This document shows, in pieces, positions 1 through 63,615 of a stretch of DNA of 64,000 nucleotides. Origin of the DNA: Mobula hypostoma (lineage: Eukaryota). Location of the stretch: assembly GCF_963921235.1 (NCBI RefSeq), contig NC_086097.1, positions 153,080,001 through 153,144,000 of the forward strand, written 5' to 3'. Made by a program: the position numbers and the translations under genes. Under the pieces are notes generated by a model. That model ran no database searches. It was not told the origin of the DNA and saw only the letters and a list, made by a program, of their open reading frames with translations. Positions within the stretch are counted from its first letter, which is position 1. Each line of letters opens with the position of its first letter.

Positions 1-1640
1 GCTAGGGCATTTTGAGGCTGAGTCTCTTAAAGGGTATTAAGGTGGATGTCCCCAAAAGCTAATTGGATATACCCCAGTTTATCGAGAGAAGCAGGAGAAT
101 AAATCGCTAAGGACTTGACGTTTTCTCTAGCCAAAGGCAAGGTCCCAGAGGACTGGCAGGTAGCTAATGTTGTTCCATTATTCAAGAAGGGAACCAGGAA
201 TAATCCTGGAAACTATAGATCCACGATTCTCATATCAATGGTAAGGAAGTTACTGGAGAGTGTTCATGGTGATAGGATTTATGAGCATTTGGAAAACCAT
301 GACCTAATTAGAGAGCAACACACACAAAATGCTGGAGGAACTTGGCAGGGCAGGCAGCATCGATGGAAAAGAGTACAGTTGACGTTTAAGGCTGAGATCC
401 TTCAGCAGGACCTGTAGATCTGCCTGGCCTGCTGATTTTCTCCAGCATTTTGTGTATGTTGCTTGCGTTTCCAACATCTGCTGCTTTTCTCCTGTTTGTG
501 CCTAATTAGGGAGAGCCAGCATGCATTTGTGCAGGACAAGTCATGTCTTATTAACTTGATTGAGTTTTTTGACGGGCTGTCAAAGGTGATTGATGAAGGC
601 AGAGGTGCGGATGTTGTATACATAGACATTAGTGAGGCATTTGACAAGGCCCCTCATAGGTGGCTCATGCGAAAGATTCTGATGAATGGGATCCATGGTC
701 AATTAGCTATTTGGTTTCAGAACATGCTTCCCCTTAGAAGAAAGAGAGTAGTGGTTGAAGGCACTTAATCTTGCTGGAGGTTTGTGCTTAGTGGTGTTCT
801 GCAGGGATCTGTATTGGGACCTCTGCAGTTTGTGATGCATATAAATGATGTGGATGAAAATGTAGACGGCTGGGTTAGTAAGTTTGCGGATGATACAAAG
901 ATTGGTGGTGTTGTAGACAGCGGAGAAAGCTGGTAAAAAGTACAACAGCATACAGATCAGTTGCAGATGTGGATAGATGAAGTTTAACCTGGCCAAATAT
1001 GAAGTGTTGCACCTTGGTAGATCAAATGTAATGAGACAGTACACTTCTAAGGGTAAGATCCTTAATAGTGTTGATGAGCAGAGGGATCTTGGGGTCTAAG
1101 TTTATAGATGCCTGAGAGTGACTACACAGGTTGTTAGGGTGGTTAAAAAGGCATATGACATGCTTGAGACATTGTGTCAAAAGTCAGGAAATTATTTTGC
1201 TATTTTATAAAACTCTGTTAGGCTGCATCTGGAGTATTGCACACACAGGGTGCAGAAGGGGTTTACCAGAATGCTACCTGGATTAGGGGGCAAGTTTGAG
1301 TTTGGAAAAACTTGGGTTGTCTTTTTCTGGAGTGGCAGAGGCTGAGAGAAGGTCTGATTGAAGGTTGTAAGATTATGAGAGACATAGGTAAAGCAGGCAG
1401 ACAATCTATTTTTCCAAGTGTTGGAATGTTTAATACTGGAGGGCATGGATTTAAGGTGAGAGATAGTAATATCAAAGGAGATGTGAAGGCCCAGTTTTTG
1501 ACAAAGAGAGTGTTGGGTGCCTACAATGTGCTGCTTGTGATGGTGATAGAGTTAGAAACATTAGGGACTTCTAAGAGACATTTAGAGAGACACATAAATG
1601 TGAGGAAAATGGAAAGAAATGGTCATTGCGTAGGCAGAAG
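1..1640 (+). mobile_element. CR1 LINE fragment (degraded ORF2 RT and 3' end)
   Basis: Frameshifted ORF pieces VPEDWQVANVVPLFKKG..NYR, KSCLINLIEFF..VDVVYIDISEAFDK, and the FADD-coding sequence tttgcggatgatacaaag at ~883-900; typical CR1 C-terminal text (GHGFKVR). Confidence 0.9.
312..500. mobile_element. Palindromic Penelope-terminal-repeat mini-element inserted in CR1
   Basis: Inverted arms cacacaaaatgctggagg.. / ..ctccagcattttgtgt; flanked by cctaattag at 303-311 and 501-509. Confidence 0.75.
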
Positions 1641-2723: not shown

Positions 2724-4342
2724 CAGTGGCATGGAAAAGTTTGGGCACGCCTGGTCAAAATTTTTGTTACTGTGGATAGCTAAGCGAGTAAAGATGACCT
2801 GATTTCCAAAAGGCATAAAGTTAAAGATGACACATTTCTTTAATATTTTAAGCAAGATTACTTTTTTATTTCCATCTTTGACAGTTTCAAAATAACAAAA
2901 AAAGAAAAGGGCCCAAAACAAAAGTTTGGACACCCTGAACAGTCAGTACTTAGTAACAACCCCTTTGGCAAGTATCACAGCTTGTAAATGCTTTCTGTAG
3001 CCAGCTAAGGGTCTTTTAATTCTTGTTTGGGGGATTTTTCACCCATTCTTCCTTGCAAAAGGCTTCTAGTTCTGTGAGAGTCTTTGGTCGTCTTGCATGC
3101 ACTGCTCTTTTGAGGTCTATCCACAGATTTTTGATAATGTTTAGCTCGGGGGACTGTGAGGGCCACGGCAAAACCTTCAGCTTGCGCCTCTTGAGGAGCC
3201 TGCAATGTGGGTTTTGAAGTGTTTAGGATCAATATCCTGATGTAGAAGCCATCCTCTTTTCATCTTCAGCTTTTTTACAGATAGTATGATGTTTGCTTCC
3301 AGAATTTGCTGGTATTTATTTGAATTCATTCTTCCCTCTACCAGTGAAACGTTCCCCATGCCACTGGCTGCAACACAAGCCCAAAGCATGATGGATCCAC
3401 CCCCGTGCTTAAAAGTTGGAGAGGTGTTCTTTTCATGAAATTCTGCACCCTTTTTTCTCCAAACATACCTTTGCTCATTACGGCCAAAAAGTTCTATTTT
3501 AACTTCATTAGTCCACAGGAATTGTTTCCAAAATGCATCAGGCTTGTTTGGATGTTCCTTTGTAAACTTCTGATGCTGAATTTTGTGGTGAGGATGCAGG
3601 AAAGGTTTTCTTCTGATGACTCTTCCATGAAGGTCATATTTGTGCAGGTGTCACTGCACAGTAGAACAGTGCACCACCGCTCCAGAGTCTGCTAAATCTT
3701 CCTGAAGGTCTTTTGAAGTCAACTGGGGTTTTGATTTGCCTTTCTAGCAATCCTATGAGTAGTTCTCTCGGAACATTTTTTTGGTCTTCCAGACCTCAAC
3801 TTAATCTCCACCATTCCTGTTAACTGTCATTTCTTAATTACATTATGAACTCAGGAAATGGCTACCTAAAAATGCTTTGCTATCTTTTTATAGCCTTCTC
3901 CTGGTTTGTGGGTATCATTTATTTTAATTTTCAGAGTGCTAGGCAGCTGCTTAGAGGAGCCCATGGCTGCTGATTGTTGGGACAAGGTTTGAGGAGTCAG
4001 GGTAATTATAAAGCTTTGAAATTTGCATCACCTGGCCTCTCCTAACAATGACTGTGAACAAGCCATAGCCCTAACAAGCTAATTAAGGTCTGAGACCTTG
4101 GTAAAAGTTATGTGAGAGCTCAAAACTCTTGGGGTGCCCAAACTTTAGCATGGTGCTCCTTTCCTTTTTTCACTGTAAAATTGTAGAAAACAAAAATAAT
4201 ACACTAATCTTGCTTAAAATGTTGAAAAGAATGTTTCATCTTTAAATTTATGACTTTTGGAGATCTGTTCATCTTCTACTCACTTAACTATTCACAGTAA
4301 CAGAAGTTTTGACCAGGGTGCCCAAACTTTTGCATATCACTA
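2724..4342 (-). mobile_element. Full-length Tc1/mariner DNA transposon, IR/DR type, inactive
   Basis: TA|CAGTGGCATGGAAAAGTTTGGGCAC at left and GTGCCCAAACTTTTGCATATCACTA|TA at right; ~210-bp imperfect TIRs, each with an inner direct repeat (aaagtttgg(g/a)cac). Confidence 0.95.
2943..3964 (-). pseudogene. Tc1 transposase pseudogene (stops and frameshifts)
   Basis: MGSSKQLPSTLK..GEGYKKIAK N-terminus; MLWACVAASGMG, WLLHQDIDPKH (QDNDPKH-like) and WPSQSPELNII motifs; ends ..TKY*. Confidence 0.9.
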
Positions 4343-6700: not shown

Positions 6701-7094
6701 TTCATTCGGGCCTATATTCCATTTGGGTAGCCTCCAACCTGATGGCATAAACATCGATTTCTCCAACTTCTAGTAATGCCCCCTTCACCACTTCCCATTC
6801 CCTATCCCCTTGCCCACCCATTACTTCCCTCTGGTGCTTCTCCCCCCTTTTTCTTTCTTCCATGGCCTTCTGTCTCTTTCACGAATTGACTTCCTAGCTC
6901 TTTGCTTCATCCTTCCCCCTGCAAGTTTCACCTATCACCTGAAGTTTCTTCCTCCCTCCCCACCCCCCCCCACCATTTAAATTTACTCCTCAGCTTTTTT
7001 TCTCCAGTCCTGTTGAAGGTTCTCAGTCTGAAATGTTGACTGAACTTTTTTCCTGGCCTGGCCTGCTGAGTTCCTCCAGCATTTTGTGTGTGTT
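6700..7094 (+). mobile_element. Penelope-like element 3' end with terminal repeat and decayed hammerhead
   Basis: LIF.LGSLQPDGINIDFSNF-like end of ORF, pyrimidine-rich UTR, agtcctgttgaagg..gaaatgttgact at 7006-7041, then ctccagcattttgtgtgtg; reverse-complement similar to 24595-25000. Confidence 0.8.
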
Positions 7095-8566
7095 GGAGGG
7101 ATATGGACATTGTGTAGGTAGGAGGAATTAGTGTTAGCATGTTTTTAATCCTTTTTAGCAGGTTCGGCACAACATTGTGAGCCAAACGATCTGTTCTTGT
7201 ACTGTACAGTTCTAAGTGTTTCTAAGTTCTAAGGAATAAACAGTCAATGTTCTGGGCCAAGACCCTTCATCGGGATGCCAGTCTCCCTTGTTTAATTCAT
7301 AGTTATCAATAGTGAACAGCTGGGATCCTGAAACATCTTATTGATCATAGATTTCCAACAAAAAATATCCCCATTTGTCCGTACACTCTATGTGCTTACC
7401 GTTAGATAATCATTAGTCAACACCAGTCTATAACTATATATATAAATAATCATATATTATCCAGGTATTTTAAGTGTAAGTCAATACTGACAAACATATA
7501 ATAAACAACATGAAAAAATGCACCAGTAGCAAAGCTCTCCGAAGTTTTGCGAGTACTCGTGCAGATAACACACTTGACCACTGTTACACTCCCTTTCGTA
7601 ACGCTTACAAAACTCTCCTTTGCCCAGCTTTTGGAAAATCAGACCACTTTTCGATCCTGCTTCTCCCGACGTACAGGCAGAAGCAGAAACAAGAGGCAGC
7701 CATTGTTAAAATCGTCCACTGTTGGTACGATCAATTGGCCCCCATGCTGAAGGACTGCTTCAATGACATCGACTGGAATGTTTTCCATGATGAGGATGTC
7801 TCCAAGGTCACGATGGAGTCACATGATTCATCCGGAAGTGCATCGACAATGTTATCCCCCAGAAGTCGGTCAGAGTCTTCCTGAACCAGAAACACAGAAT
7901 CAATAGTTCCGTGTGAGCAGGACTTGCAGCGTGACATCGAGCTTACATTGCCGGTAGTCAGCGGGAACTCAAGAAAAGCGGCTACAATCTGCAAAAAGCT
8001 ATCAAGGCTGTGAAACAACAATACAGGGACAAGATCGAATCATGATTCACAACAAATTGCACACGTGACTTGTGGCGAGGGCTGCATACCATCGCAGACT
8101 TCAAAGCCAAACCTTGTGGTGCCGCCAACATCGCGGCATCTCTCCCGGATGAACGCAATCATTTCTATGCTTGGTTCCATGTCGGTAATTCTGAGTCTCT
8201 GAGGAGAGCCACCACTTCAACCTACAACCTCATCATATCTGAGGCTGAGGTATGCAGATGCTTCCAACGAGTGGACAGTCGCAAGGCTGCAGGACTGGAT
8301 GGCATCCCAGCTGACTATTCAGGATGTGCTCAGCACAACTGGCAGGTGTGTTTACTGACATTTTTAATCTTTCCCTCTCCCAGTGTAGAGTGTCCTCCTG
8401 CTTCAAATTATCCACCATTGTCCCTGTACCAAAAAAGACCAAGGTAACATGTCTGAACGACTGGCGTCCTGTCGCACTCACCTCAATAATAAGCAAATGC
8501 TTTGAGAGGCTGGTCAAGGATTACATCTGCAGCTTGTTACCACCCACACTGGACCCCTTACAATTC

Positions 8567-8700
8567 AAACACGAGGAATTCTGCAGATGCTGGAAATTCA
8601 AGCAACACACATCAAAGTTGCTGGTGAACGCAGCAGGCCAGGCAGCATCTCTAGGAGGAGGTACAGTCGACGTTTCAGGCCAAAACCCTTCGTCAGGACT
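8567..8700 (-). mobile_element. Penelope terminal-repeat fragment inserted in Rex1 RT
   Basis: aacacgagg..gctggtgaacgcagcaggccaggcagcatc..gtcgacgtttcaggccaaaacccttcgtcaggact interrupts Rex1 between DPLQF and EKKDAYVRM. Confidence 0.8.
8665..8700 (-). ncRNA. Minimal type I hammerhead ribozyme motif
   Basis: Minus strand AGUC-CUGACGA-AGGGUUUUGGCCU-GAAACGUC-GACU: stem I AGUC/GACU, core CUGANGA and GAAA, short stem II, palindromic ACGU in place of helix III, GUC cleavage triplet. Confidence 0.7.
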
Positions 8701-9869
8701 AAGGATGAGAAGAAGGATGCTTATGTAAGAATGATGTTCTTGGACTACAGTTCAGCATTCTACAGCATAATTCCATCCAGGCTCGACAGGAAGCTCAGAG
8801 ACCTTACCTTGTGCAGCTGGATCCTGGACTTCCTGTCAGATTGCAGGGAGGTGGTAAAAATGGGCTCCCTCACCTGGAGCCACTCAAGGCTGTGTACTGA
8901 GTCCCCTCCATTACTCCTTGTATATCCATGACTGTGTCGCCATCCACAGCTCTAATCTGCGAACTAAATTTGCCAATGACACTACTTTGATTGGCCTAAT
9001 CACAAACAATAACAAACTGGCCTACAGGGAAGAAGTCATCTCTCTGACACAGCGGTGTCAAAAGAACAACTTCTCCCTCAAGGTCACAAAAAGAAAGGAG
9101 CTGGTTGTGAATTACAGGAGGAATGGAGATGGCCCTATTGCCATCAAAGGATCTGGGGTTGAGAGGGTAAACAGATTTAAGTTTTTCGGCATCCACATCA
9201 TCGAGGACCTCACGTGGTCTGTACACACCATCTGTATGGTGAAAAAAGCACAACGGTGCCTATTTCACCTCAGACGGTTGAGGAAGTTTGGTATGGGCCC
9301 CCAAATTCTAAGAACTTTCTACAGGGGCGCAATTGAGAGCATCCTGACTGGCTGCATCACTGCCTGGTATGGGAACTGTACTTCCCTTAATCGCAGGACT
9401 CTGCAGAGAGTGGTGCAGACAGCCCAGCGCATCTGTAGTTGTGAACTTCCCACGATTCAGGACATTTACAAAGACAGGTGTAAAAAAAGGGCCGAAGGAT
9501 CACTGGGGACCCAAGTCACCCCAACCACAATCTATTCCAGTTCCTACTATCTGGGAAATGGTACCGCAGCATAAAAGTCAGGACCAACAGGCTCCGATGA
9601 AACTTCTTCCACCGGGCCATCAGACTGATTAACTCACGTTGATTTGAGTGTATTCTATGTTACATTAACTGTTCTAATTATTATAAATTACTATGATTGC
9701 ACAGTACACATTTAGACGGAGATGCTGTGTAAAGATTTTTACTCCTCATGTACGTAAAGGATGTAAGAAACAAAGTCAATTCAAATTCAAATGTACACTA
9801 TGTTTGTTTCCACTTTATCTTGTGAGATTTCTATGTATTTACTGAGAGACTTACTTTTTTGCTTAATGT

Positions 9870-13879: not shown

Positions 13880-15062
13880 TAATGTGTCACCACCCACAGC
13901 TCCCATCTGCTAATTAAATTTGCTGATGACACAATGCTGATTGGCCTAATCACAAATAATAATGAGGCAGCCTACAGAGAGGAAGTCACCACCCTGACAC
14001 AGTGGTAAAAAGGAAACAATCTCTCTCTTAATGTCGCTGGTTGTGGACTACAGGAGGAAGGGAGACAGGTTAGCCCCTATTGACATCAATGGCTCTGGGG
14101 CTGAGAGGGTGAACAGCTTTCGGTTCCTTTGCATCCACATCACCGAGGATCTCATGTGATCTGTACATACTGGCTATGTGGTGAAAAAAGGGACAATTGA
14201 GAGCATCCTGACTGGCTGCATCACTGCCTGGTATGGGAACAGTACATCCCTCAGTCACAGGATTCTCCAGAGAGGGGTGCAGAGAGCCCAGTACATCTGT
14301 AGTTGTGAACTTCCCACTATCCAGGACATGTACAAAGACAGGTGTGTAAAACGGGCCCAAAGGATCACTGGGAACCCGAATCACCCCAACCACAAACTGT
14401 TCCAGCTTCTACCATCCAGGAAATGGTACCGCAGCATAAAAGTCAGGACTAACAGGCTCCGGGACAGCTTCTTCCACCAGGCCATCAGACCGCTTACTCA
14501 TGCTGACACAACTGTATTTCTATGTTATATTGACTATTCTTTTTTAGATTATGAAGACATGCAGTCCTCTTTTATTGTCATTTAGTAATGCATGCATTAA
14601 GGAATGATACAAAATTTCCTCCGGTGTGATATCACAAAACACAGGACAGACCAAGACTGAAAACAACTAACAAAACCACATAATTATATAGTTACAACAG
14701 TGCAACAATACCATAACTTGATGAAGAAGTCCATGAGCACAGTAAAGTTCAAAGTCTCTCAAATGTCCCACATCTCATGCAGGCGGGAGAAGGAAGAAAA
14801 ACTCTCCCTGCCATACCCGGCCACAGACCGACGCTGAGTCATCCGAAAACTTCGAGCCTCCAATCAGCTCTCTGACACCGAGTACTGAGCACCATCTCTG
14901 TCCGAAGGATTCGACGTCAATTCTGTTGTACATACTATTTATTATAAATTACTATAAATTGGACGTTGCACATTTAGACGGAGATGTAACATATAGCTTC
15001 ATACTCCTCAGGTATATGAAATATGTAAGTAATAAAGTCAATTCAATTCAATTCAATTCATT
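13880..15062 (+). mobile_element. Rex1/Babar LINE 3' fragment (same family as 7545-9792)
   Basis: KFADDT; IESILTGCITAWYG..CELPTIQDMYKDRC is near-identical to the 9.3-9.5 kb copy; (attca)n tail at 15037-15060. Confidence 0.9.
14541..14919 (-). mobile_element. 5'-truncated non-autonomous retroposon (family of 25176-25838)
   Basis: Reverse complement aligns with ~25410-25830; TSD attct at 14536-14540 and 14920-14924. Confidence 0.8.
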
Positions 15063-23123: not shown

Positions 23124-24594
23124 AGTGTCAGTTTAAAAGAATGCAAAGTCATTCAGACAAAAGCCAAATTGCTGCTTAAGTTAGAAGTACAAATGTCAAA
23201 TAAATTGGTGCAGATTCTAAACAATTCATTTACCTGGATACTTTGATCAGACAGTTTGAAACAGTTAGAAATCTCACTGAAGGATGGAATGAGAAGATAT
23301 GGGAAATAGAACGATATTATATATGTACAAAAAGTATGAAAGATAAAACATTAATTCTTCCTTCCATGGATACTGTCTGTTTCCAAACAGTTTCTGTACT
23401 TTACTATTTTGATACATTATTCAGCAGAATGTTACCCTGGATCTAAGGACAAATTCTTTCTCATATATGAGGAGAAATTTAGAAAGAGAAAGATTGTGAG
23501 GTAGAATTTCTAAGAGATAGAAACACAGAAGAACATCTCACTGACAACTGGGTAGATTTAACAGTTGCATTTCATGTTAATTGTAGGGCCATTAGTCCTC
23601 AAGGTTTGTTGATTTGAAGTGACTGGGAAGCAAAAGTCTTTAAAACCTGATTCACGATCCATACCTGCTTCCATAGAGTGAATTCCTATCTTAATGGGGG
23701 ATGGTGGAATACCAGGATAGAAGAACATCCAACCAATTTATTCTGAGGGGATAATTTGATTCATCACAATGTTTAGGGAGGTTGCATTCAGTCATTCCAT
23801 GATGAGTTCTAACTCCTACTTTGAGGACTTAATTGCCCAGGGCCTGGAAATAATAGCAGTGCCCATGTGTCAGAACTAGTCCCCAGCTTCTCTGTTCTAC
23901 CCTGATCCTTGCCCAATCTCCACAATTCTAAATCATTGGCACCTCTTAATGTCTCCCTATGACCACCAACACCTACTCACACCCAGCTAACCACCTTAGA
24001 AATGTTAATCTATCAGATAGAAATTTTGTGGAACTAACAATGACAAATCTTGCAGTTAATTGCTGCCAATTGTGTTTCAAACCAATGATTTCATGTTATG
24101 AGACCCCTTCCTCAGCTCTGTTTATGCTGTTCTCTTCTTGGTCCAGCATATATAATGGGAGCAATGTGTTTAGTAGAATATAAACAAGATCCAATTACAT
24201 TTGCTGGTTTAGTAAGGGAGACTTACCTCATTACCTCCAGGTAAATTATTTAGTAATTTCATTTTCTACTCATGATGTTTTATTTATCACGTAATTATAA
24301 TTCACCAGAACAAATGTTTGTTTGCACTGAATATTTTATTGAAGCTAAAAATACTGTGGATGAAAACATCCAAGATGGTAAAGTTCCAAAACTTTAAAGT
24401 GACAGAACACTGGGTGGTGCCCTGGCTTACTTCACTGTTCTGAGACCATGGTTTGATATGGTTCAACTTTGATCTTGTATGGGGAGAGTGCCTCATATTA
24501 TATTTATCAGAGGCTACTTTATACACTAGGCTACATGAATATAAAAATGCAACTTTAATTACACTGGTAACTTCAACAATATTGCTTGTGAGCC

Positions 24595-26395
24595 ACACAC
24601 ACAAAATGCTGGAGGAGTTCAGCAGGTCAGGCAGCATCTTGGAAAAGAGTACAGTAGACTCTATGGGCCAACCCTCGGGCAGGACTGGAGAAAAAAAGCT
24701 GAAGAGTAGATTTTAAAGGTGGGTGGTGGGGAGAGCGAAACACAAGGTGAGAGGTGAAACCTGAAAGGGGAGGGATGAAGTAAAGACCTGGGAAGTTGGT
24801 TAGTGTAAGAGACAAAAGGCCATGGAAAAAAGAAAAGGGGGGAGGAGCGCCAGAGGGAGATGATGGGCGGACAAGGAGATAAGGTGAGAGAGGGAAAAGG
24901 GAATGGGAAATGGTGAAGGAGAGGTGGGTGGAGAGCATTACCAGAAGTTTGAGAAATTGATGTTCAGATTGGAGGCCACCTAAATAGAAAAAAGGGGTTG
25001 TTCCTCCAACCTAAATGTGGTCTCATCACGACAGTGGAGGAGGCGATGGATAGACATATTGGAATAGGAATGGGAAGTGGAATTAAAATGGGTGGCCACT
25101 GGGAGATCCTGCTTTTTCTGGTGGATGGAGCGTAGGTGCTTGGTGATTCACCATCTATATCGGGCCTTGCCGATAGAAGATATAGAAGATGGTGGCGCGA
25201 CGCAGCTTGCAGCAGCCACTCCGGTGGTGATATCTGTTATCTGTCAAGTAGGGTGTCGTGCACAATCCTGATTTGATGGAGACAGACGTGAGAGCACAGG
25301 GGAACATCTGGTGAAACTTCTGAAATGCCTGCTTCGCTGCTGCTGCTACTGTGTGATCCAGAATCTCCGGAGGGGAAGGCCCTGAGTCCTCAGCGGCTGG
25401 CGTGGGGTCGAAGCGCTCGGCAGAGGATGGTGCTCGGTGCTCGTTATCTGAGGGCTGGTCAGAGGCTCGAAGTTTTCGGACGGACTCAGAGTCGGCTGCG
25501 GTCGGGTGCTTCCAATGCATCGGCAAGTTTGCAGCGCTTGGAGGTTCATGGCAGGGAGAGTTTCTCCCTTCTACCGTCTGCGTGAGATGATGGGGCTATC
25601 TGGACTTGAGACTTTTTTTTACCGTGCTCATGGTCTGCTCTTTATCAAATTACGGTATTGCTTTGCACTGTTGTGACTATATGTTATAATTATGTGGTTT
25701 TGTCAGTTTTAGTCCTGGTTTGTCCTGTGTTTCTGTGATATCTTTTTGAAGGAACATTGTATCATTTTTTAATGCATGCATTTCTAAATGACAATAAATG
25801 AGGACTGAGTGCCCTCATAATCTAATCTAATCTAATCTGATATACAAGAGGCCACACCAGGAGCACCAGACACAGTATATCACTCCAAAAGATTCACAGG
25901 TGAAGTGTTACTTCACCTGGAAGGACTATTTAGGGCTCTGAATGATAGTGAGGGAGGAGGTGTAGGGATATGTGTAGCACCTGTTCTGCTTGCAAGGATA
26001 AGTGCCGGGAGGGAGATCAGTGGGGAGGAACGAATGGATAAAGGAGTCGCATAAGGAGCCATCCCTGTGGAAGACAGAAAAAGAGAGAAGGGAAAAATGT
26101 GCTTTGTGGTGGGATCCCATTGGAGATGGCAGAAGTCAAGGCGAACTATGTACTTAACACAGAGGCTGGTGGGATGGTAGGTGAGCACAAGAGGAACCCT
26201 ATCCTTGGGAGGGTGGTGGGAGGATGGGGTGAGGGCAGACATGCGTGAAATGGAAGAGAAGGGGTTGAGGGCAGCAATGATGGTGGAGGAAGGGAATCCA
26301 CTTTCTTTGAAAAAGGAGGCTATCTCCTTCATTCTAGAATGAAAACCCTCATCCTGAAAGCAGATGCGGCGGAGATGGAGGAATTGAGAGAAAGG
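24595..26395 (-). mobile_element. Penelope-like retroelement 3' portion (RT C-terminus, linker, GIY-YIG endonuclease, terminal repeat)
   Basis: PFSQFLHLRRIC..DRVPLVLTYHP; TYPCKQNRCYTYPY; HFTCESFGVIYCVWCSWCGLLYI (GIY-YIG); ends in the ctccagcattttgtgtgtg repeat. Confidence 0.9.
25176..25838 (+). mobile_element. Apparently full-length non-autonomous retroposon inserted in the Penelope GIY-YIG
   Basis: Starts ..AAGATGGTGGCG, no credible ORF, AATAAA then (atcta)n tail; gata flanks at 25172-25175 and 25839-25842. Confidence 0.75.
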
Positions 26396-26756
26396 TCTCA
26401 ATGATAGACAAGGGGCCACAATGGGAGTCATAATAGCCTGGGACCAAACACTGCATTTCTGAGATATAGTGACATGCAAACCTTCCAGCATTAAATAATG
26501 CCAGTTTTCAGATAATTAGTGTCCTCCGTTATAGTGCTACAAGTGATCATCTTGTCTTTGTGAGCTGAGTCCTTTATCTGCTTTATATGCCTCATTCTCT
26601 GGTAACCAGATAGTTTTGTGCAATCAATAGTATTGCCACAGTAAAAGTGTAATTTACTTGTTGTTAACCTTCTAGGTAGCACACGTAGTAATCTACACAT
26701 TGCATTAGAAGACAAGTTACAAATATGCATAAAACATATGGAAAAATAAATAAAAG

Positions 26757-26886
26757 CAACACACACAAAATGCTGGAGGAACTCAGCAAACCAGGCAGCA
26801 TTTATGGAAAACAGTAAGCAGTCAATATTTTGGGCCAGGACTCTTCATCAGGACTGATGAAGGATCTCAGCACGAAATGTCGACTG
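26757..26886. mobile_element. Penelope terminal-repeat fragment with back-to-back hammerhead motifs
   Basis: acacacaaaatgctggaggaactcagc..cagtcaatattttgggccaggactcttcatcagga|ctgatgaaggatctcagcacgaaatgtcgactg. Confidence 0.75.
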
Positions 26887-27544: not shown

Positions 27545-27675
27545 TCTCTAGTTTGGGATGAGGCCTTTTCTTCAGGACTGGAAAAGGTCTCAACTCAAAA
27601 CATTGACTGGTTACTCTTTTCCAATGATACTGCCTGGCCTGCGTAGTTCCTCCAACACTTCGTGTATGCTGCTTA
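27545..27675. mobile_element. Degraded Penelope terminal-repeat fragment
   Basis: ttcaggactg..aaaacattgactg..tgcctggcctgcgtagttcctccaacac. Confidence 0.6.
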
Positions 27676-35240: not shown

Positions 35241-38029
35241 TATAAATTGTCGAGTAGAGTCAGGTGGAAACGTGGCAGACAGGGTATGTATTTTTAATTT
35301 GACATCCTCCCTCTACCAACAGTGCATTTTGCAGGCACATACAAGGAACACCAAAATGTTTTGTTTTTTACATCATATGTATTACTGACATTCCCTTCTG
35401 TTATCTTCTCCTCCCCTTTCCCCATTTTCTGCATCTTATAACCATGTTATAATCAATCGTTTCCCAAATCTGACTATTCCACAAATAGGTCTCTCCAAAT
35501 ATGCTGACTGATTTAAAATATTTTCTGTTAAACTTCCAATCGGAGTGTCCAGACCACTTAAAGGAAAGTGTTTATTCCTGTAATAAAAATGAAAAACGCT
35601 GGAAGTATTAAGTAGATCAAGCAGGATCTGTGAATCAAAAAACAGAGATGACATATCCGATCAATAACCATTCATCAAACCCATTTGCTTTTGGATGGTT
35701 GATGAACATTTTGAAGAGGGAGTTGCAGGATTTTTATGCTATGTGCCAAAGTGCCTGATGGATATGATAAGGCGAATAAGGTCATTTTCCCTTATCATGT
35801 TATTTTGCCATTTGTTTTCAATCTATTTTCTCTGGTTAAAATCTCACTTCCAATTTCTCTCTGTCTTCTCGATAAAATTGGTCACATTGAATGATGGGGC
35901 AGGCTTCAATGGCTCCATGACTTGTGCCTATTTCTATATTAATATGTTATTACACTTTTATAGCTTCTTTCAAAGCTGGGCATCCTAACCACAGGGAACA
36001 AAAAAGAAAAATTGGAAACATTCAAAATTTGAAATATTTATATACAAAATGATAGAAAACTCAATGAGTCACTCAGTATCGGAGAGAGAGAAACTGTTAG
36101 GATTAAGATTCCAGATGAATGGCATTTAATTTTATTAGAACTTAGAGCATTTTAGGATCATAACTCAGGCAAGTATATCTTGCTTTTGAGTGAAACTTTC
36201 TTAAATCTATGCAGTAGGATTAGTATGTTAGGTATAAATTGAGATAGAATGCTTAGAATGTTATATATTCCGATGCATAAAATCATTCATATTTAATTTC
36301 CATGCTTGAATTAAACATTCTGTTTAACTCTCAATCGCTTTGATATTAATAGGGTTAAATAAATTAGATTGCTTGATGGGGGAAGAGATCTTACATGACA
36401 ATGGATGAGAAAAGTAGAAGCCATTTGAATACAGCATCCAGAAGCAGCACTTCATGAAACGATGCTTGAGTATCCTTGCAGAGTGAAACGGACAGGAGCC
36501 AAACAGCAAGAAAATGTCTCTGAGACTGAGACTTTAAGGCCTCTTGTTTATGAATACTACGATGGAAAGGAGAACATTTCTCAAATGAAAAAGAGACGAA
36601 AAGAGAGAGAGAGATACAGAGACAGCAAGAGAAAGGAATAGAAACATTATTTGTGGAGTTCTATGTCTCTTTTTCTCCTTTGAATGGTTATACTGCAGTC
36701 ACACAATCATAGAATAACGGGACAGAAGAAGCCCACTGACATCTGTCTCACCACTTCCCCTTTTCTCTTTATACTGGTTACTTTCCCTCTTCACACTAAT
36801 CTCCACTCAGTCCTAATGCAGGGTTTCGACCCAAAAAGTCACCCAGTGCTGCTTACCGGCTGAGTTCCTCCAGCAGATCACTCCTTATTACAGATAAAAA
36901 GCTGTTCACTCCACCAGTCCTCTGTGATTTGGAACCATCATGTCACATCATACTGTTTTCCTCCATAAACCTGTAAATTAGTTCCCATCAAATATATAAC
37001 CAACTGACTTAAAAAAATTCCATTGGAATCTAATTTTACTCTTCTTTTTAATTGATACATTCCAGTTATTAATACATTCTTTTTTTTACTGAATTCCCTC
37101 TTGTCCTTTCTGCTATTGATTTTAAGTCTGTGACAGAAGAGTTCTTTCACGCTTTCTCCATTGAAACCTTCACAATACCGAGTACCTTTATTAGGCCTTC
37201 AGTTAACGCTGTCTTCTGAAGGAAAATTATCCCCATGTGCTTATTTATCTTCCACGCTATTATCTGGATAAATGTTTCAGGGCTCTGAGTCATTAAGGTA
37301 GGATAAATGTAAATGGATGCGTGATGGTCAGTGCAGATTCAGTGCGCCAAGGGACCGGTCTCTGAGCTGTATCTGTATGTCTCTATGAACTCTGACCTAA
37401 TTCATTTATAATTTACTTGAGTTCTACAAGTAACTTATACAGATTTAACATTACATCTTTAATTTTGTACTCAGTTGCTTCATTTACAAAACCAAGTTTT
37501 CCCTTCACTTGCTTCATCATCTCATCAACTTTCTAAGACTTGAAAATACAGCATGTACGTGCATCTTCTGGCTAAGACTACATAGAAACATCCAAACATG
37601 AATGAGGAGCGGTGGTAGTCCACCCAGCTCACTTCACCATCCAATAAGATCATGACTGAATTTATAATTGTAAATGTGTTCCCATCTATTCCTGGTAACC
37701 CTTCACTCTCTTGTTTAATAAGTATCTATCCACCTGTGCTTTATAAGCATTCATGTGCACTTTTTGAGAAAAAAAAAGAGTTCCAAAAACTTGACCTATT
37801 GAGTAAAAATATCGCCTCCTCTCTTTCTTAAGTAGGTGATCCTTTTTTTTAACAAGTGATTCTTCATTTTAATTTTTTTAAGTGGCTCCCATTTTTACAT
37901 TTCTATATTATTGCATCTGAAATGAATCATTTCACATCTACAGATGTTAAATTGTACCTAACATCTATCTAGTCACTTTATCAATCTTATACCCGTTAAG
38001 TTGTATCTAACATCAATCAAGAACAGGAA

Positions 38030-39976: not shown

Positions 39977-42890
39977 CATAGAAACATTGAAACATAGAAA
40001 CAAACATAGAAAATAGGTGCAGGAGTAGGCCATTCGGCCCTTCGAGCCTGCACCGCCATTCAATAATAGACAATAGTCAACAGACAATAGGTGCAGAAGT
40101 AGACCATTCGGCCCTTTGAGCCTGCACCGCCATTCTGAGATCATGGCTGATCATCTACTATCAATACCCGGTTCCTGCCTTGTCCCCATAACCCCTGATT
40201 CCCCTATCCATAAGATACCTATCTAGCTCCTTCTTGAAAGCATCCAGAGAATTGGCCTCCACTGCCTTCTGAGGCAACGCGTTCCACACCTCCACAACTC
40301 TCTGGGAGAAGAAGTTCCTCCTCAACTCTGTCCTAAATGACCTACTCCTTATTCTTAAACCATGCCCCCTGGTACTGGACTCTCCCAGCATCTGGAAAGT
40401 ATTTCCTGCCTCTATCTTGTCCAATCCCTCAATAAACTTATATGTCTCAATCAGATCCCCCCTCAATCTCCTTAATTCCAGCGTGTACAAGCCCAGTCTC
40501 TCTAACCTCTCTGCGTAAGACAGTCCGGACATCCCAGGAAATAACCTAGTGAACCTACGCTGCACCTCCTCCACAGCCAGGATGTCCTTCCTTAACCCTG
40601 GAGACCAAAACTGCACACAATACTCCAGGTGTGGTCTCACCAGGGCCCTGTACAAATGCAAAAGGATTTCCTTGCTCTTGCACTCAATTCCCTTTGTAAT
40701 AAAGGCCAACATTCCATTAGCCTTCTTCACTGCCTGCTGCACTTGCTCATTCACCTTCAGAGACTGATGAACAAGTACTCCTAGATCTCTTTGTATTTCT
40801 CCCTTACCTAACTCCACACCATTCAGATAATAATCTGCCATCTTGTTCTTGCTCCCAAAGTGAATAACCTCACACTTATTCACATTAAACGCCACCTGCC
40901 AAGTTTCTGCCCACTCACCCAGCCTATCCAAGTCACCTTGAATCCTCCTAACATCCTCATCGCATGTCACACTGCCACCCAGCTTAGTATCATCAGCAAA
41001 CTTGCTGATGTTATTCACAATGCCTTCCTCTAAATCATTGACGTAAATCGTAAATAGCTGTGGTCCCAATACCGAGCCCTGTGGCACCCCACTAGTCACC
41101 ACCTGCCATTCCAAGAAACACCTATTCATTGCTACCCTTTGCTTTCTATCTGCCAACCAGTTTTCTATCCATGTCAATGTCCTCCCCCCAATGCCATGAG
41201 CTCTGATTTTACCCACCAATTTCCTATGTGGTACCTTATCAAATGCCTTCTGAAAGTCAAGGTACACCACATCCACTGGATCTCCCACATCTACCTTCCT
41301 GGTTACATCCTCGAAAAACTCCAATACATTAGTCAAGCATGATTTGCCCTTGGTAAATCCATGCTGGCTCGGCCCAATCTTATCACTGCTATCAAGATAT
41401 GCTGCTATTTCATCTTTAATAATGGACTCTAGCATCTTCCCCACTACTGATGTTAGGCTAACAGGGTGATAGTTCTCTGTTTTCTCCCTCCCTCCTTTCT
41501 TAAAAAGTGGGATAACATTAGCCACTTGCCAATCCTCAGGAACTGATCCTGAATCTAAGGAACATTGGAAAATGATCACCAATGCATCCGCAATTTCCAG
41601 AGCCACCTCCTTTAGTACCCTAGGATGCAGATCATCTGGACCTGGGGATTTGTTAGCCTTCAGTCCCATCAGTCTACTCATCACTGTTTCCTTCCCAATG
41701 TCAATCTGTTTCAGTTCCTCTGTTACCCTATGTCCTTGGCCCATCCATACATCTGGGAGATTGCTTGTGTCTTCCCTAGTGAAGACAGATCCAAAGTACT
41801 TATTAAATTCGTCTGCCATTTCTCTGTTTCCCATAACAATTTCTCCCAATTCATTCTTCAGGGGCCCAACATTGTTCTTAACTATCTTCCTTCTCTTCAC
41901 ATAACTAAAAAAAACTTCTGCTATCCTCCTTTATATTCCTAGCTAGCTTGTGTTCATACCTCATTTTTTCTCCCCGTATTGCATTTTTAGTTAAGTTCTG
42001 TTGCTCCTTAAAAATTTCCCAATCATCCATCTTCCCACTCACCTTAGCTCTGTTATACGTCTTTTTTAATGCTATGCTATCTCTGACTTCCTTTGTCAAC
42101 CACTGTGGCCACTTTCCCCCCTTTGAATCCTTCCTTCTCCGTGGGATGAAATGATTTTGCACCTTGTGCACTATTCCCAAGAATACCTGCCATTGCTGTT
42201 CCACTGTCTTTTCTGTTAGGATATCCGACCAGTCAACTTTGGCCAGCAACTCCCTCATGGCTCCATAGTCTCCTTTGTTCAACTGCAATACTGACACTTC
42301 TGATCTGCCCTTATCCCTCTCAACTTGCAGATAAAAACTTATCATATTATGGTCACTACCTCCTAATGGCTCCTTTACTTCAAAATCACTTATCAAATCC
42401 TGTTCATTGCACAACACTAAATCCAGAATAGCCTTATCCCTGGTCGGCTCTCGTACAAGCTGCTCCAAAAATGCATCCCGTAGGCACTCTACAAACTCCC
42501 TATCCTGGGGTCCAGTACCAACCTTATTTTCCCAGTTCACCTGCATGTTGAAATCCCCCATAACTACTGCGACATTTCCTTTGCCACATGCCATTGTTAA
42601 CTCCCTATTCAACTTGCACCCAATATTCATGCTACTGTTTGGGGGCCTGTAGATAACACCTATTAGGGTCTTTTTGCCCTTACTGTTCCTCAGTTCTATC
42701 CACACTGACTCTACTTCTCCTGATTCTATGTCCCCCCTTGCAAGGGACTGAATCTCATTCCTCACCAACAGGGCCACCCCACTCCCTCTGCCCACCTTTC
42801 TGCCCCTTCGATAGCACGTATACCCTTGTACATTCAATTCCCAGGTCTGATCTCCCTGCAGCCATGTCTCCGTTATACCATGTCTCCGTT
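39977..42890 (-). mobile_element. Young CR1 LINE with near-complete ORF2 (APE + RT), 5'-truncated
   Basis: APE: GITETWL, GVIYRPP, MGDFN, GGSDH; RT: LDFQKAFDKVPH, GVPQGSVLGP, KFADDTK; one frameshift at the A8 run 41907-41914. Confidence 0.97.
40161..42880 (-). pseudogene. CR1 ORF2 (endonuclease/reverse transcriptase), one frameshift, N-terminus missing
   Basis: ORFs 41905-43047 and 40161-41900 join as ..SRSFFSYVKRR.. if one T is removed; CR1 similarity starts at GITETW. Confidence 0.9.
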
Positions 42891-48299: not shown

Positions 48300-51200
48300 G
48301 GGTTTGTAGGCCATTACTTCCTACAAGACAAAACCTAACATCATAAATGACTGTGATGCTTCACTCCCAGATGAGCTCAACGTCTTTCATGTACACTTTG
48401 AAAAGACAAAAATATCTATACCTGTGTGAATCCTTTGCAGCTTTGGTGATCCTGTGATATCTGTCTCAGAGGCCAATGTCAGAATATCTCTGAAGAGGAT
48501 GAACACTTACAAGGCATTAGGCCCCGACCGTGTTGCTAGCAGGGAACTGAAAGCCTGTACCAACCAACTGACCTGAATGTTCAAGGACAATCTTTTATCT
48601 CTCACTGCTGCAGTCAAATGTTCCACCTGCTTCAAAAGGGCATCAACCACACTGGTGCAGAAGATGAGCAAGGTGAGCTGTTGCAATGCGTATTGCCCAT
48701 TTGCACTCACATCTACGGTGATGAGATTGATCATGGCTTGAATTAACTCCTGCCCATGCAAGGATCTGGACCCGCTGCAATTTGCTCACTATGAAAATAG
48801 GTCTACAGCAAATGCAATCTCACTGTCTCTCCCCTAGGCCTTGCCCTACCTGGACAACCGCAAAACCCTTGTACGACCGATGGCCACACATTCAAAATTT
48901 ATTTTGAACGTGTTGCTTCCTCAGATATTTTTTGTGGTTATGATAGACTGCTTAAGATGAAAGTCAAATTTAATTTCAGATTACTTGTATCATGTAGGAA
49001 ATTGGAGAAACCAGAAATAAACTTTTATTGAATATAATGCATTTAATTGCATAACGGTGCTGACACTTTGCAATAGTTGAACTAAGCTAAAAAATGTTCT
49101 GTTGATGATTTTCATTTGTACCCAGTGTCTAAGGCTTCTCGCTTAAGTGTCCAACAATAATCAGCCAACATTGATGGATTCCGGCTGCCCTGATATCATT
49201 TCTCTATGACCGCAATGTCCTGGTGAAACCTTTCACCATGCTTAACACTAACAGTGCCAAGATTTGCAGGGAAAAGTCGAAATGGAAATACAGAAAATTA
49301 ATCTTTGGTGACATGTTGTACTTGATGATTTTGTGTGCTTGAAGCATGTTGTTAACCAGCTTAACATAGTTTGATGCTCTGTAGTCATCAAGAAAATTTT
49401 CAACAACATCCTTGAATGCTTTCCAGGCGATTTTCTTCTGTCCCACTAGAAGTTCTTCGAATTGCCTGTCATTGATATCTGTTTAACATGTGGACCAACA
49501 AAAATACCTTCTTTAATCTTGGCATCAGATATTTTGGGAAATATCTGTCTCAAATATCAAAATCCCTCATGAAAGTTTTGTGTCTGGTGACTGCAGATTC
49601 TATCCTTACAGTCTTGAACACAGAAATTCTGTTTTTGCCTTTGACAAACCCAAGTTTCTGACCAGGTCATTTAACTCAGATTGAGTTATCAGATGAGACT
49701 CAATCAACATAAGTGGTTCAAAATCTGTTTCAGTATTTGCATCATTTTCCATTCCTGGCTCATGTCTCATGCATCATCACATCTCTTCCTTCTCTAGACT
49801 CCATGTCTCTGGTGGCTTCAATACTGGAAGACTATCATGCGGCACAGGTTTCATGGCTGAACGGAGATTGGGGTATTCAATGGATTTCTTGTTTATCACA
49901 GAGAAACGAGACACACTGGTTAGACTGAGGTATCAGTCTGTCACTTGATCCTCTTGCTCTCGCCATATCACTGGGACAACAAAGAGTATTTACTTCCAGA
50001 AACCTCTGAGCTAGGCTCCAAGATTGACAGCGCATGTTGTGCAACAAATGTGAGGAGCCCAAGCCTTGGCTTGGTGGTCAATGTTGCAGCCAAAGTAGAG
50101 CTCGTAGGCTTTCATAATGAGGGGATTCATGCTCCATCTTTGACTGTATTCTCAACACAAATATAACAGAAGTTATCACGGCTGTTGCAACATTGGTGAG
50201 ATATTTTGCCACCACAAATACTCCTGAAAATAAAATTATGTTATTATAATGAGTACAGACAATATGCTTACGGGTAGAGCATGTGCATCAACGTGATCGC
50301 AAACCGATATACTGTACATGTAAACACAATGCATGGAATGGTGCTTTTACCGTCTTTCTAAAACCTATGCTGCCATGCAGTGTTCACCCTATCCAAGCAT
50401 GCCTGGACAAGACAGAAAACTTTTCAGCTTACATTGTGAGCAACATTTTAGATGACTTGAATTATGAATTGAAGTAACAAATATAGCTGATAGTTTAAAA
50501 AAAGAATGCTATGTAATAGGAAAATTTCATGGTGATTTTCATGATCAGCAGCTCAAAATCCATAAGCAGCATCCAGAAGTATTAAGGAAGCAAATTTTTT
50601 GTTGTCCAGAGTTACAGCTCAGCATTCAACACAATCATCCCTTCAATACTATCCAATAAGCTTCAGAAGTTGGACCTCGGTACCTCCCTCTGCAACCGAA
50701 TCCTTGACTTCCTTATTGAGAGACCAAAGTCAGTACAGATAGGAAATATTCTCCTTTTCACTGACAATCAACCCCAGAGCAGCTCATTTAGCCTTCTTCT
50801 CTATTCTCTACACTCATAAATATGCAGCAGGATCTCAGATGATTGGAGGAGGAATATAGCGTGTGATAGATGAGCTGGGTGAGTGGTGTCGCAAGGACAA
50901 CACTGGCCTCAGCATTAGTAAGGCCAAGAATTGATTGTGGACTTCAGGAAAGTGAAGTTGAGGGAACACACACCATTTCTCATTGAGTGATCAGCAGTGG
51001 AAAGGTTGAGCAATTTCAAGCCCTGGGTGCCAACATCTCTGAAGATCTATCCTGGGCCCAACATATTGATGCAGTTGCAAAGAAGGCACACCATCAGCTA
51101 TATTTCATTAGGAGTCTGGGGAGATTTGGTATTTCACCAAAGCTCTAGCAAATTTCTACAGATGTACTGTGGAGAGTATTCTAACGGGCTGCATCTCCAG

Positions 51201-52207: not shown

Positions 52208-52301
52208 AAACACACACACACACAATGCTGGAGGACCTCAGCAGGCCAGGCAGCATCTATGAAAAACAACACAGACGACATTTCAGGCCAAGACCCTTCA
52301 G
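52208..52301 (-). mobile_element. Penelope terminal-repeat fragment
   Basis: cacacaatgctggaggacctcagcaggccaggcagcatctat..gacatttcaggccaagacccttcag. Confidence 0.75.
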
Positions 52302-54068: not shown

Positions 54069-54263
54069 GAGACACAAGAGACTGCAAATATTGAAGTTTG
54101 GAGCAACAAACAATTTACTGAAGGAAATCAATGGGTCACACAACCTCTGTAATGAACAGCATTAGTCCTGATTCAGGGATTCAACCTGAAACATTGTCAA
54201 TTCCTTCCCCCACACACATGCTGCTCACCCCACTGAGTTCCTCCAATAGATTGTTTGTTGCAC
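54069..54263. mobile_element. Palindromic Penelope-derived mini-element with 13-bp TSD
   Basis: Inverted arms gcaacaaacaatttactgaaggaa / ttcctccaatagattgtttgttgc; decayed hammerhead agtcctgattcaggg..cctgaaac; exact TSD taaattacatctg at 54056-54068 and 54264-54276. Confidence 0.75.
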
Positions 54264-62270: not shown

Positions 62271-63074
62271 AGACTTATTTCTAAGTGAAATAAAGTCCAT
62301 CTTCAACAAAGGAAGTAACTGGATCATAGATTTGCCAAAACCTGAATAAATACCTGGAATATTTATCACAGATTTCTCATATTTGTTTTGCCTCAAAAAG
62401 GCTTGAGCTTTAACCTGGAATTTTGCTTCACACAGCAGGCACAATACAATATGAAAGCAAGTCCATGCCTGCCATCACATACTTACCCATTATAATCCCA
62501 CTTTCTCATACTAAGCCTATAGCCTGTATATATTCTGATGTTCATCTAAATCCATCTCAAATATTTCCCACATCACACAGACTGTGCCTTCTAGATAACA
62601 GTCACTATGCCAGTAAAAATAAATCTTCCTTGGTTCTTCCCTAAACATCCTACTTCTTACCTTCAATCTCAGGCCTCTGGTTATTGAACACAAGTTTATC
62701 ACTCTCAAACCTATCAATGACCCTCATTATCTGGATGCCTCTATCAGACCTTCCCTCAGCCTCCACTGCTCGAAAGAAAGAAAATCCAACCAATTCAGTC
62801 TATCTTCACAACTGAAGTGCTCCATCCCAGGGAACATCTTTTGTCTCCTCTGCTCCTCATCCCATGACATCATATCCTTTCTGTAGTGTGTAGATCACAG
62901 ACAGTAATCAGCAATGTGTTAACTAATATAGTACTTAACAGTACCATAACCTTCCCACTCTTATAGTTTGTGCCCCAACTAATGCAGACCCATATGACTT
63001 CTTAACCACATTTCAATATATTGTTGCTTTAGGAGATCCTTTGACTTTAAACCAAAGTTCCTTTTTTTTTCCGA

Positions 63075-63173
63075 GTAACACACACATAATGCTGGGGGAA
63101 CTCAGCAAGTCAGTCAGCATCTGTAGAAGCAAATAAATAGTCGACACTTTGAGCCAAGACCCTGCATCAGTCC
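63075..63173 (-). mobile_element. Penelope terminal-repeat fragment
   Basis: cacacataatgctgggggaactcagc..gtcgacactttgagccaagaccctgcatcagtcc. Confidence 0.7.
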
Positions 63174-63480
63174 TAATAGTTTTTTAGGATTAAATTTCCA
63201 CTTAATTCTTTCTGACCATCTTACTGACTCATCAGTATCATCCTGTACCTGAAGGTCATTCTCCTCATTCTCAACAAAACTAGCAATCTTCATGACATCT
63301 GTGACCCCGAGGTCCAGTCACTTCTGGATTATTCATGTACATAACAAACAGCAGAGGACCCTGATGTACACCACAGGCTTCTAATCATAAAAGCAACACT
63401 TCACTGTTACCTTCTGCCACCTATCACCAAATCAATAATATATTAACGTTACCAAATTAACCTGTATCCCATCACTCTTA

Positions 63481-63615
63481 AACAAAAGAGGTTCTACAAA
63501 TACTGGAAATCCAAAGTAACACACACCAAATGTTGAAAGAATCAGCAGGTCAGGCAGCATCCATTGAGGGGAATAAATAATCAACATTTTGTGCTGACAC
63601 CCTTCATCAGGACTG
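63481..63615 (-). mobile_element. Penelope terminal-repeat fragment
   Basis: cacaccaaatgttgaaagaatcagcaggtcaggcagcat..cccttcatcaggactg. Confidence 0.7.

What the first reader, a model, noticed from the sequence alone, without database searches (positions are those of the whole stretch)
8665..8700. Intact minimal hammerhead ribozyme in a Penelope terminal repeat
Seen (minus strand): AGUC CUGACGA AGGGUUUUGGCCU GAAACGUC GACU. It has a perfect 4-bp stem I (AGUC/GACU), the conserved CUGANGA and GAAA core, a 3-4 bp stem II, no real helix III but the self-complementary ACGU, and a GUC cleavage triplet. Established: Penelope-like elements carry minimal type I hammerheads that are thought to cleave as dimers through such palindromes. 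Decayed copies lie at ~377-411, 7006-7041, ~7242-7275, ~24652-24686, 26820-26886, ~27545-27607, ~36809-36843, ~52272-52301, ~54164-54200, ~63139-63173 and ~63579-63614. In the two longer PLE pieces the motif is sense to the PLE ORF. Inference: this genome is densely seeded with self-cleaving RNA motifs that could cut any transcript crossing the region.
Basis: partly seen in the sequence, partly recalled or inferred. Interest (0 to 1): 0.72.

Follow-up and report, generated by a model that had tools for sequence, protein, structure and literature searches.

The report
Ordinary Penelope stub with minimal hammerhead
This is a real but ordinary 135-base leftover end of a Penelope-like jumping gene, likely from a ray, carrying an already described tiny ribozyme-shaped motif; it is the only copy in the window with the motif whole, likely because it is young, and on its own it is predicted not to cut RNA.

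Summary
The motif is at 8700-8665 (minus) as described, with the predicted cut at 8669/8668. It is the window's only hit to a minimal-hammerhead descriptor (0 in 60 simulated windows). It is the 5' end of a solitary ~135-nt stub of a Neptune-type Penelope-like element (PLE), not part of a flanking repeat pair. The stub is inserted antisense in a decayed LINE. Protein homologues point to a ray.

Such minimal hammerheads in PLE ends are published (PMC4209133). The scan has reported this family before (76 findings, at least 22 genomes).

The inference of dense seeding with active cutters is not supported:
- Of 11 copies scored, only this one keeps core, both stems and palindrome.
- The others decay at CpGs with no compensatory change.
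- This copy has G10.1·U11.1 rather than the usual G-C.
- It is predicted to lock its core in a 4-bp off-helix.
- It has no intact same-strand partner.
- Published single minimal hammerheads did not cleave.

The open point, already noted by earlier scan reports, is that copies mostly begin at the motif's 5' edge, not at the cut site. This fits copying from uncut RNA. Interest is low.

The parts
8665..8700 (-). Minimal type I hammerhead motif: stem I, CUGACGA, unpaired A, stem II (G·U, G-C, G-C, possibly U·G), GAAA, ACGU palindrome, GUC triplet
8668..8669 (-). Predicted scissile bond, 3' of C17 (8669); cleavage not shown
   Evidence: position from the sequence and standard hammerhead numbering (recalled)
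8566..8700 (-). Solo 5'-truncated PLE stub, 134-135 nt: hammerhead, ~65-nt spacer, ~35-nt tail
   Evidence: family ends pile up at 8566/8567 and 8698-8702 in public DNA runs; window copies
8566..8600 (-). Optional ~35-nt 'tail', present in this copy, in the 412-498 arm and at 63492-63614; absent from most other window copies
   Evidence: 30-40-bp tail described in PMC8557442 and PMC11167929
8701..8707 (+). 6-7 nt of filler at the stub's 5' junction, repeated 12 nt further on in the host flank; no target-site duplication; about 23 host codons are missing
   Evidence: comparison with the paralogous LINE piece at 48760-48870
7480..9790 (+). Decayed LINE that hosts the stub (Rex1-type is my recalled label); the hammerhead is antisense to it
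   Evidence: ORF pieces, RT-like by tblastn to RVT_1 frames, extent from self-BLAST
24590..25144 (-). PLE 3' end: GIY-YIG C-terminal part, ~255-nt 3' UTR, decayed hammerhead 24652-24686, spacer
25692..26413 (-). PLE ORF piece: RT thumb region, Cys linker, start of GIY-YIG
6711..7096 (+). PLE 3' end: last codons, 3' UTR, decayed hammerhead 7006-7041 (A6 changed)
314..498 (.). Head-to-head two-armed stub with decayed hammerhead 377-412 (-), flanked by a 13-bp duplication with one mismatch
26755..26886 (.). Two decayed hammerheads joined head to head at their 5' edges (26855-26820 minus, 26850-26885 plus)
7229..7277 (-). Decayed copy, nearest same-strand neighbour of the focal copy; U4, G12 and A13 changed
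27575..27674 (+). Decayed stub beginning at a fold-back junction
36809..36883 (+). Decayed stub (G5, A9, G12 changed)
52214..52301 (-). Decayed stub beginning inside the core
54164..54263 (+). Decayed stub (G8, A9 changed)
63073..63174 (-). Decayed stub (A9, G12, A15.1 changed)
63492..63614 (-). Decayed stub with tail (G12 changed), 12-bp duplication with one mismatch

Best explanation
The motif is a minimal hammerhead-shaped sequence at the front of a solitary 135-base stub of a Penelope-like retroelement; the stub is likely a young, dead-on-arrival insertion copied from uncut RNA, and its motif is predicted not to cut on its own. Shown: anatomy, PLE origin, solo state, decay of the sister copies. 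Inferred mechanism: the element's RT starts inside the RNA at the tail (as shown in vitro for the anole element), copies ~100-135 nt and stops or runs off at the 5' edge of stem I, where the RNA likely begins. The product is pasted into the genome and then decays neutrally. In an intact parent element the motif would cleave slowly, only as a pair joined through the ACGU palindrome or with help from the PLE protein. This copy is whole because it is recent, not because it is selected.
For: PLE origin: the same motif follows GIY-YIG-coding ends by ~240-255 nt at two window loci; homologues are 67-69% identical proteins named from Hypanus and Mobula. Real fold in the lineage: among 94 distinct motifs from metagenome contigs, found with a pattern that left stem I free, 44 have at least 4 contiguous stem I pairs, against 6.9 +/- 2.3 with shuffled partners (max 14 in 1000); 27 of 123 loci hit PLE proteins. 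No selection on inserted copies: 10 of 11 scored copies have lost the C11.1-G12 CpG (5 with T at 11.1, 5 with A at G12), 9 of 11 have core changes, and 0 of 7 pairs show two-sided changes. Youth: in the assessable part of the stub, the public runs' majority letter differs from this copy at one listed place (8657), against at least 15 listed places in the host LINE. Predicted off state: G5-G8 pairs with C15.2-C17 at p=0.98; the double-hammerhead skeleton lies 10.5 kcal/mol above two monomers, against a median of 2.5 in 57 metagenome motifs, only one of which equals it. Uncut template: this stub and most sisters contain both sides of the cut site; by eye 10 of 13 window copies begin within about 4 nt of the stem I edge. 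Literature: PMC4209133 (single motif inactive, dimers low); PMC11167929 (uncut RNA is the main substrate, cleavage needs protein, tail ends are RT start sites).
Against: No cleavage assay and no raw RNA reads were available. Nearest-neighbour energies ignore tertiary core contacts, Mg2+ and proteins; 21 of the 57 comparison motifs also have the off-pair at p>0.5. The loose ends at 8698-8702 mix true 5' ends with copies that run on into the 3' UTR, which the reference lacks. One arm (about 409-498, +) begins near the cut site. The runs used may be of other species than the window's (best share of words 0.50). Positions 8673-8700 could not be assessed in the runs, so it is unknown whether U11.1 and C7 are private or fixed in the subfamily.
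Confidence: 0.8

Rival explanations
1. One reading: the copies are live self-cleaving motifs that cut host transcripts crossing them, as cis or trans dimers among the very many young genomic copies.
For: This copy keeps all 11 core positions scored, 4/4 stem I pairs and the palindrome. The family is very abundant: 26,143 and 20,876 contigs lay on 111 bases in two runs. In the 3' half of the motif the listed variants stay at or below about 8% and all fall in CpGs, whereas spacer positions vary by up to about 31%. A preprint reports that related retrozymes are depleted from Xenopus introns and exons (10.64898/2026.07.22.740005).
Against: Only 1 of 11 scored copies is whole; there is no intact same-strand partner in 64 kb; the core is predicted to be sequestered; published single motifs are inactive without a partner or protein. 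No transcript over this strand is shown.
Confidence: 0.1
2. The 135-nt unit is a non-autonomous SINE- or retrozyme-like element that multiplies itself through its own short or circular RNA, not a by-product of full PLE RNAs.
For: Sharp ends on both sides in hundreds of contigs (621 and 416 loose ends at 8566 and 8567 in run X1), and summed depth tens of times that of the host LINE.
Against: No tandem copy next to it. Two window copies run straight on into PLE UTR and ORF. Tail-plus and tail-minus ends match the two RT start sites described for a PLE. A circle made by cleavage and ligation would not set ends at the stem I edge (inference).
Confidence: 0.15
3. The 5' edge of the stubs is a 3' splice site or an RT stall at stem I rather than a transcript start; the rest as in the best explanation.
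For: In both UTR-bearing copies a pyrimidine run ending in CAG abuts stem I, and in D. virilis Penelope the intron end maps to the 5' end of helix I (PMC4209133).
Against: The solo stubs keep the AG and share no obvious first exon upstream (4 of 4 inspected: 8700, 36809, 54164, 63614). The same letters also fit the initiator consensus YYANWYY (recalled; a low-information match).
Confidence: 0.25
4. Chance resemblance to a hammerhead.
For: No Rfam hammerhead model matched; the 36-mer folds no better than shuffles (z -0.85).
Against: Descriptor null 0 in 60 windows; fixed position in PLE 3' ends; stem I covaries in other PLE families with the same core.
Confidence: 0.02

Closest known systems
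Minimal hammerheads (min-HHR) in pLTRs of metazoan PLEs (Cervera and De la Pena 2014, PMC4209133; parts 1-2 of 4 of the text read)
   Same: Type I, 4-bp helix I, extra nucleotide between 9 and 10.1, palindromic 15.2-16.2 with no helix III, mostly solitary copies from truncated PLEs, some opposite-strand pairs; reported in Xena, Poseidon and Neptune PLEs of fishes.
   Different: G10.1·U11.1 in place of G10.1-C11.1 in this copy; short helix II (3-4 bp). No shark, skate or Callorhinchus entry in the 2 supplementary files searched; file 1 could not be searched.
Poseidon element of Anolis carolinensis, PAc (Frangieh et al. 2024, PMC11167929; parts 1-2 of 4 read)
   Same: Hammerhead shortly upstream of an optional 30-40-nt tail whose ends are RT start sites; uncut RNA as template; AT-rich targets.
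   Different: The element here has a Neptune-type Cys linker. The parts read do not describe piling-up of 5' ends at the motif's edge.
EN+ PLE insertions, Neptune clade (Craig et al. 2021, PMC8557442; passages read)
   Same: C-terminal GIY-YIG, CX2-5CxxC linker, strong 5' truncation, adjacent inverted copy, one-sided tail.
   Different: The focal copy is only the terminal stub and came with a host deletion rather than a duplication.
Non-LTR retrozymes (bioRxiv 10.64898/2026.07.22.740005; part 1 of 5 and passages read)
   Same: Type I hammerhead of PLE pLTR origin; found in the one chondrichthyan sampled; solitary monomers occur.
   Different: Defined there as tandem repeats with a motif in each unit; this copy is single.

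Membership tests
PLE minimal hammerhead (min-HHR) | Core CUGANGA ... GAAA ... UH | tested here: met
PLE minimal hammerhead (min-HHR) | Helix I of 4-5 bp closing a type I fold | tested here: met
   4/4 Watson-Crick pairs, probability 0.66-0.96 depending on flank
PLE minimal hammerhead (min-HHR) | [quoted passage not shown] | tested here: met
   A8689; A in 11 of 11 copies
PLE minimal hammerhead (min-HHR) | Highly conserved G10.1-C11.1 pair (a recurring trait, not part of the descriptor in PMC4209133) | tested here: not met
   G·U in this copy; C at 11.1 in 6 of 11 window copies and 86 of 94 metagenome motifs (pattern allowed only C or T)
PLE minimal hammerhead (min-HHR) | Palindromic 15.2-16.2, no helix III | tested here: met
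   ACGU at 8673-8670
PLE minimal hammerhead (min-HHR) | Lies in the terminal (pLTR) sequence of a PLE | tested here: met
   sister copies follow GIY-YIG ends at two loci; this copy is a detached piece of that sequence
PLE minimal hammerhead (min-HHR) | Self-cleavage as a dimer or with protein | not testable with these tools
   only folding energies, which disfavour the active dimer
EN+ PLE, Neptune clade | RT followed by C-terminal GIY-YIG endonuclease | tested here: met
   tblastn and translation of 26413-24944; the motif was read by eye, Pfam gave no family for 25913-26512
EN+ PLE, Neptune clade | CX2-5CxxC linker between RT and EN | tested here: inconclusive
   the window piece keeps two of three Cys; close homologues P0001 and P0003 keep all three; no RT tree was built
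EN+ PLE, Neptune clade | 5' truncation, inverted neighbours, one-sided 30-40-bp tail | tested here: met
Non-LTR retrozyme | Tandem units, each with a type I hammerhead | tested here: not met
   no tandem neighbour in self-BLAST
Rfam hammerhead families | Covariance-model match | tested here: not met
   no hammerhead family at E<=1

The most novel reading that the evidence does not exclude
The young, hugely amplified ray subfamily carries a self-locked hammerhead (C7 completes a GACG/CGUC off-helix; G10.1·U11.1 weakens stem II), and its RNA starts at the first base of stem I. The motif would then act as the 5' cap structure of an uncut template, not as a cutter. Internal initiation ~100-135 nt downstream and run-off at that 5' end would mass-produce stubs. 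This would be genome-scale natural evidence that hammerhead cleavage is dispensable for PLE transposition.
Probability: 0.25. Interest if true: 0.45.

Novelty: new member of a known kind. Interest (0 to 1): 0.17.

Why it matters
As it stands it adds one more animal lineage to a published motif class and shows that most genomic copies are broken, so it matters little. The only lever on an open question (what PLE hammerheads are for) is the family-level pattern: stubs hold both sides of the cut site and start at the motif's edge, which fits in vitro data that uncut RNA is the template. That needs the whole genome and RNA-end data, and earlier scan reports already raise it.

Tried and rejected
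No whole genome was held, so no genome-wide counts were made.

Rfam scan: one chance-level snoRNA hit, no hammerhead.

Pattern scans: the full 36-letter motif found 0 stretches in metagenome contigs; the shorter core pattern found 0 in viral contigs.

No RNA holder was listed for 8000-9600. The two runs guessed to be RNA are contigs and show neither strand, level nor ends, so nothing is concluded on expression.

Read laying lists differences only about 30 letters from alignment ends, so 8673-8700 could not be tested for family conservation. No listed piece spanned the insertion site, so its presence or absence in other animals is unknown.

A target-site duplication for the focal copy was sought and not found (longest shared word 4 nt; none of 8 or more nt with 1 mismatch). 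A cap-derived extra G before the stubs: 0 of 4 solo stubs.

(42 two-sided changes, 0 of 500 shuffles) was run on the focal copy plus 29 loci that I picked by hand from 123, leaning towards good stem I, so it only illustrates. The unselected count is: 120 matches with enough flank, 94 distinct, related families not independent. The nhmmer scan used a profile built from the same copies and is circular for them. Two copies with indels (24686, 27575) were left out of the 11-copy position table.

In metagenome families only 11 of 65 testable copies ended within 7 nt upstream of C3, and 40 ran on more than 20 nt, so edge-clustering is weaker there.

Lunse et al. (PMC5785218) was not held and is known only from its citation.

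Literature searches: hammerhead ribozyme + Penelope, 36 papers; Penelope + Chondrichthy + hammerhead, 3; Penelope + stingray + transposable element + genome, 0; Penelope + pLTR + transcription start + hammerhead, 3. No listing showed a study of ray PLE hammerheads, but subscription papers are not covered.

Full report
Observation. In hammerhead numbering (recalled): stem I is 8700-8697 with 8668-8665, the CUGACGA box is 8696-8690, A8689 is unpaired, stem II is 8688-8686 with 8679-8677, GAAA is 8676-8673, the ACGU palindrome is 8673-8670 and C17 is 8669. A descriptor for this architecture hits only this site on both strands of the window, and 0 times in 60 simulated windows of the same dinucleotide make-up. 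Rfam has no matching hammerhead model at E<=1, and the 36-mer is not unusually stable (z -0.85). The preferred stem II register begins with G10.1·U11.1 (p 0.96), so 'intact' needs that one qualification.

What it sits in. The motif is the first 36 nt of a 134-135-nt insert (8700 to 8566/8567). On public DNA contigs, family members stop matching at 8566/8567 (621 and 416 loose ends in run X1, 535 and 339 in X3; agreement 0.4, so unrelated flanks) and at 8698-8702. The insert interrupts an RT-like frame of a decayed plus-strand LINE ('Rex1-type' is my recalled label), so the hammerhead is antisense to its host. There is no target-site duplication. Comparison with a paralogous piece at 48760-48870 suggests that about 23 codons of host are missing, with 6-7 nt of filler that repeats the adjacent flank.

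The same motif follows the end of a PLE ORF by about 240-255 nt at 24686 (-) and 7006 (+). The ORF piece at 25913-26512 is 67-69% identical to proteins named from Hypanus sabinus and Mobula hypostoma (5 of 6 hits), so the window is likely from a ray. Homologues carry a C-x4-C-x2-C linker before the GIY-YIG domain, the mark of Neptune or Nematis in PMC8557442; no tree was built. The last ~35 nt of the insert are present in 3 window copies and missing in most, matching the optional PLE tail.

Is the fold real in the lineage? Of 120 matches with enough flank, 94 were distinct. Of these, 44 have at least 4 contiguous Watson-Crick pairs in stem I, against 6.9 +/- 2.3 with shuffled partners and 0-4 with slid registers; N17 is C or U in 90 of 94; 27 of 123 loci hit PLE proteins. 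These motifs fall into related families, so they are not independent, but the stem I sequences differ between families while pairing is kept (illustrated on a hand-picked set). The architecture is therefore under selection in active PLE lineages.

Are the inserted copies selected? In the 11 ungapped window copies only the focal one keeps core, both stems and palindrome; 9 have core changes, and 26850(+) has a whole core but broken stems. The C11.1-G12 dinucleotide survives in 1 of 11: five copies have T at 11.1 and five have A at G12, the pattern of CpG decay (window CpG observed/expected 0.27). G12 is the general base (recalled). Across 14 aligned copies no pair has a two-sided change, and pairing is below the shuffled mean (72% against 77%). 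In the assessable part of the focal stub, the runs' majority letter differs at one listed place (8657), against at least 15 in the host LINE (13 rows were not shown). Youth explains its wholeness. In the motif's 3' half the listed variants are CpG transitions of 1-8%; 8673-8700 could not be assessed.

Would this copy cut? ViennaRNA pairs G5-A6-C7-G8 with C15.2-G16.2-U16.1-C17 at p 0.98, also with 100-150 nt of flank (0.94-0.96). The double-hammerhead skeleton scores -9.5 kcal/mol against -20.0 for two monomers. That 10.5 gap is the highest value, shared with one of 57 comparison motifs (median 2.5), though 21 of 57 also favour the off-pair. These are secondary-structure energies only. The nearest same-strand copy (7277-7242) lacks U4, G12 and A13. 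In PMC4209133 a single minimal motif gave no detectable cleavage, and dimers and trimers gave low cleavage. In PMC11167929 the anole motif cleaved only with the PLE protein, catalytic mutants did not affect insertion, and no RNA-seq reads began or ended at the cut site.

How the stub likely arose. It contains both sides of the cut site, so its template was uncut there, or religated. By eye, 10 of 13 motif-bearing window copies begin within about 4 nt of the stem I edge (some at fold-back junctions), 2 run on into the UTR and 1 begins inside the core. Copies were found through the motif, which biases this count, and one extra arm (about 409-498, +) begins near the cut site. In the runs, loose ends at 8698-8702 total 1138 (X1) and 921 (X3), and none of the six best rows per run is at 8668/8669 (smallest listed 108 and 118; 211 rows not shown). 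Part of these ends are copies continuing into the UTR.

I first read the pyrimidine run plus CAG before stem I as a splice acceptor, as in D. virilis. After reading scan note e1-9579745 I favour a transcript start with RT run-off: the stubs keep the AG, share no visible first exon, and the letters fit the recalled initiator consensus. Neither reading is shown.

Known context and verdict. This is a new member of the published PLE min-HHR class. The scan holds 76 findings with these words in at least 22 genomes and several in this genome; they are unreviewed notes and are not counted as evidence. Supplement file 1 of PMC4209133 and the bioRxiv supplements could not be seen and may list cartilaginous-fish motifs. 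Interest 0.17.

Noticed in passing
window 303-513: Two-armed head-to-head stub (314-498) between 13-bp direct repeats with one mismatch; only one arm has the tail.
   Followed up: partly
window 63469-63636: Stub with tail flanked by a 12-bp duplication (one mismatch), with about 10 extra nt between its 5' edge and the repeat.
   Followed up: partly
window 8701-8719: The 5' junction of the focal stub has a 7-nt word repeated at 12-nt spacing, beside an estimated 23-codon loss of the host LINE; it looks like templated end-joining repair.
   Followed up: partly
window 26820-26886, 63174, 27572-27580: Fold-back junctions centred on the first bases of stem I; the same junction form appears as 258 and 141 loose ends at 8702 in two public runs.
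   Followed up: partly
window 25145-25690: A ~550-nt repeat (similar to 14544-14915) splits the PLE GIY-YIG coding region in two.
   Followed up: no
window 40161-41930 (-) and 55290-57221 (-): Long open RT frames (589 and 643 aa) of LINE copies about 75% alike; RVT_1 confirmed for the first.
   Followed up: no
window 3177-3650 (-): 157-aa frame that reads like a Tc1-type transposase fragment (recalled likeness; Pfam gave no family).
   Followed up: no
L038:1501-1579 and L045:1501-1587: Head-to-head pairs of minimal hammerheads 25-31 nt apart in metagenome contigs, like the fold-backs in the window.
   Followed up: no
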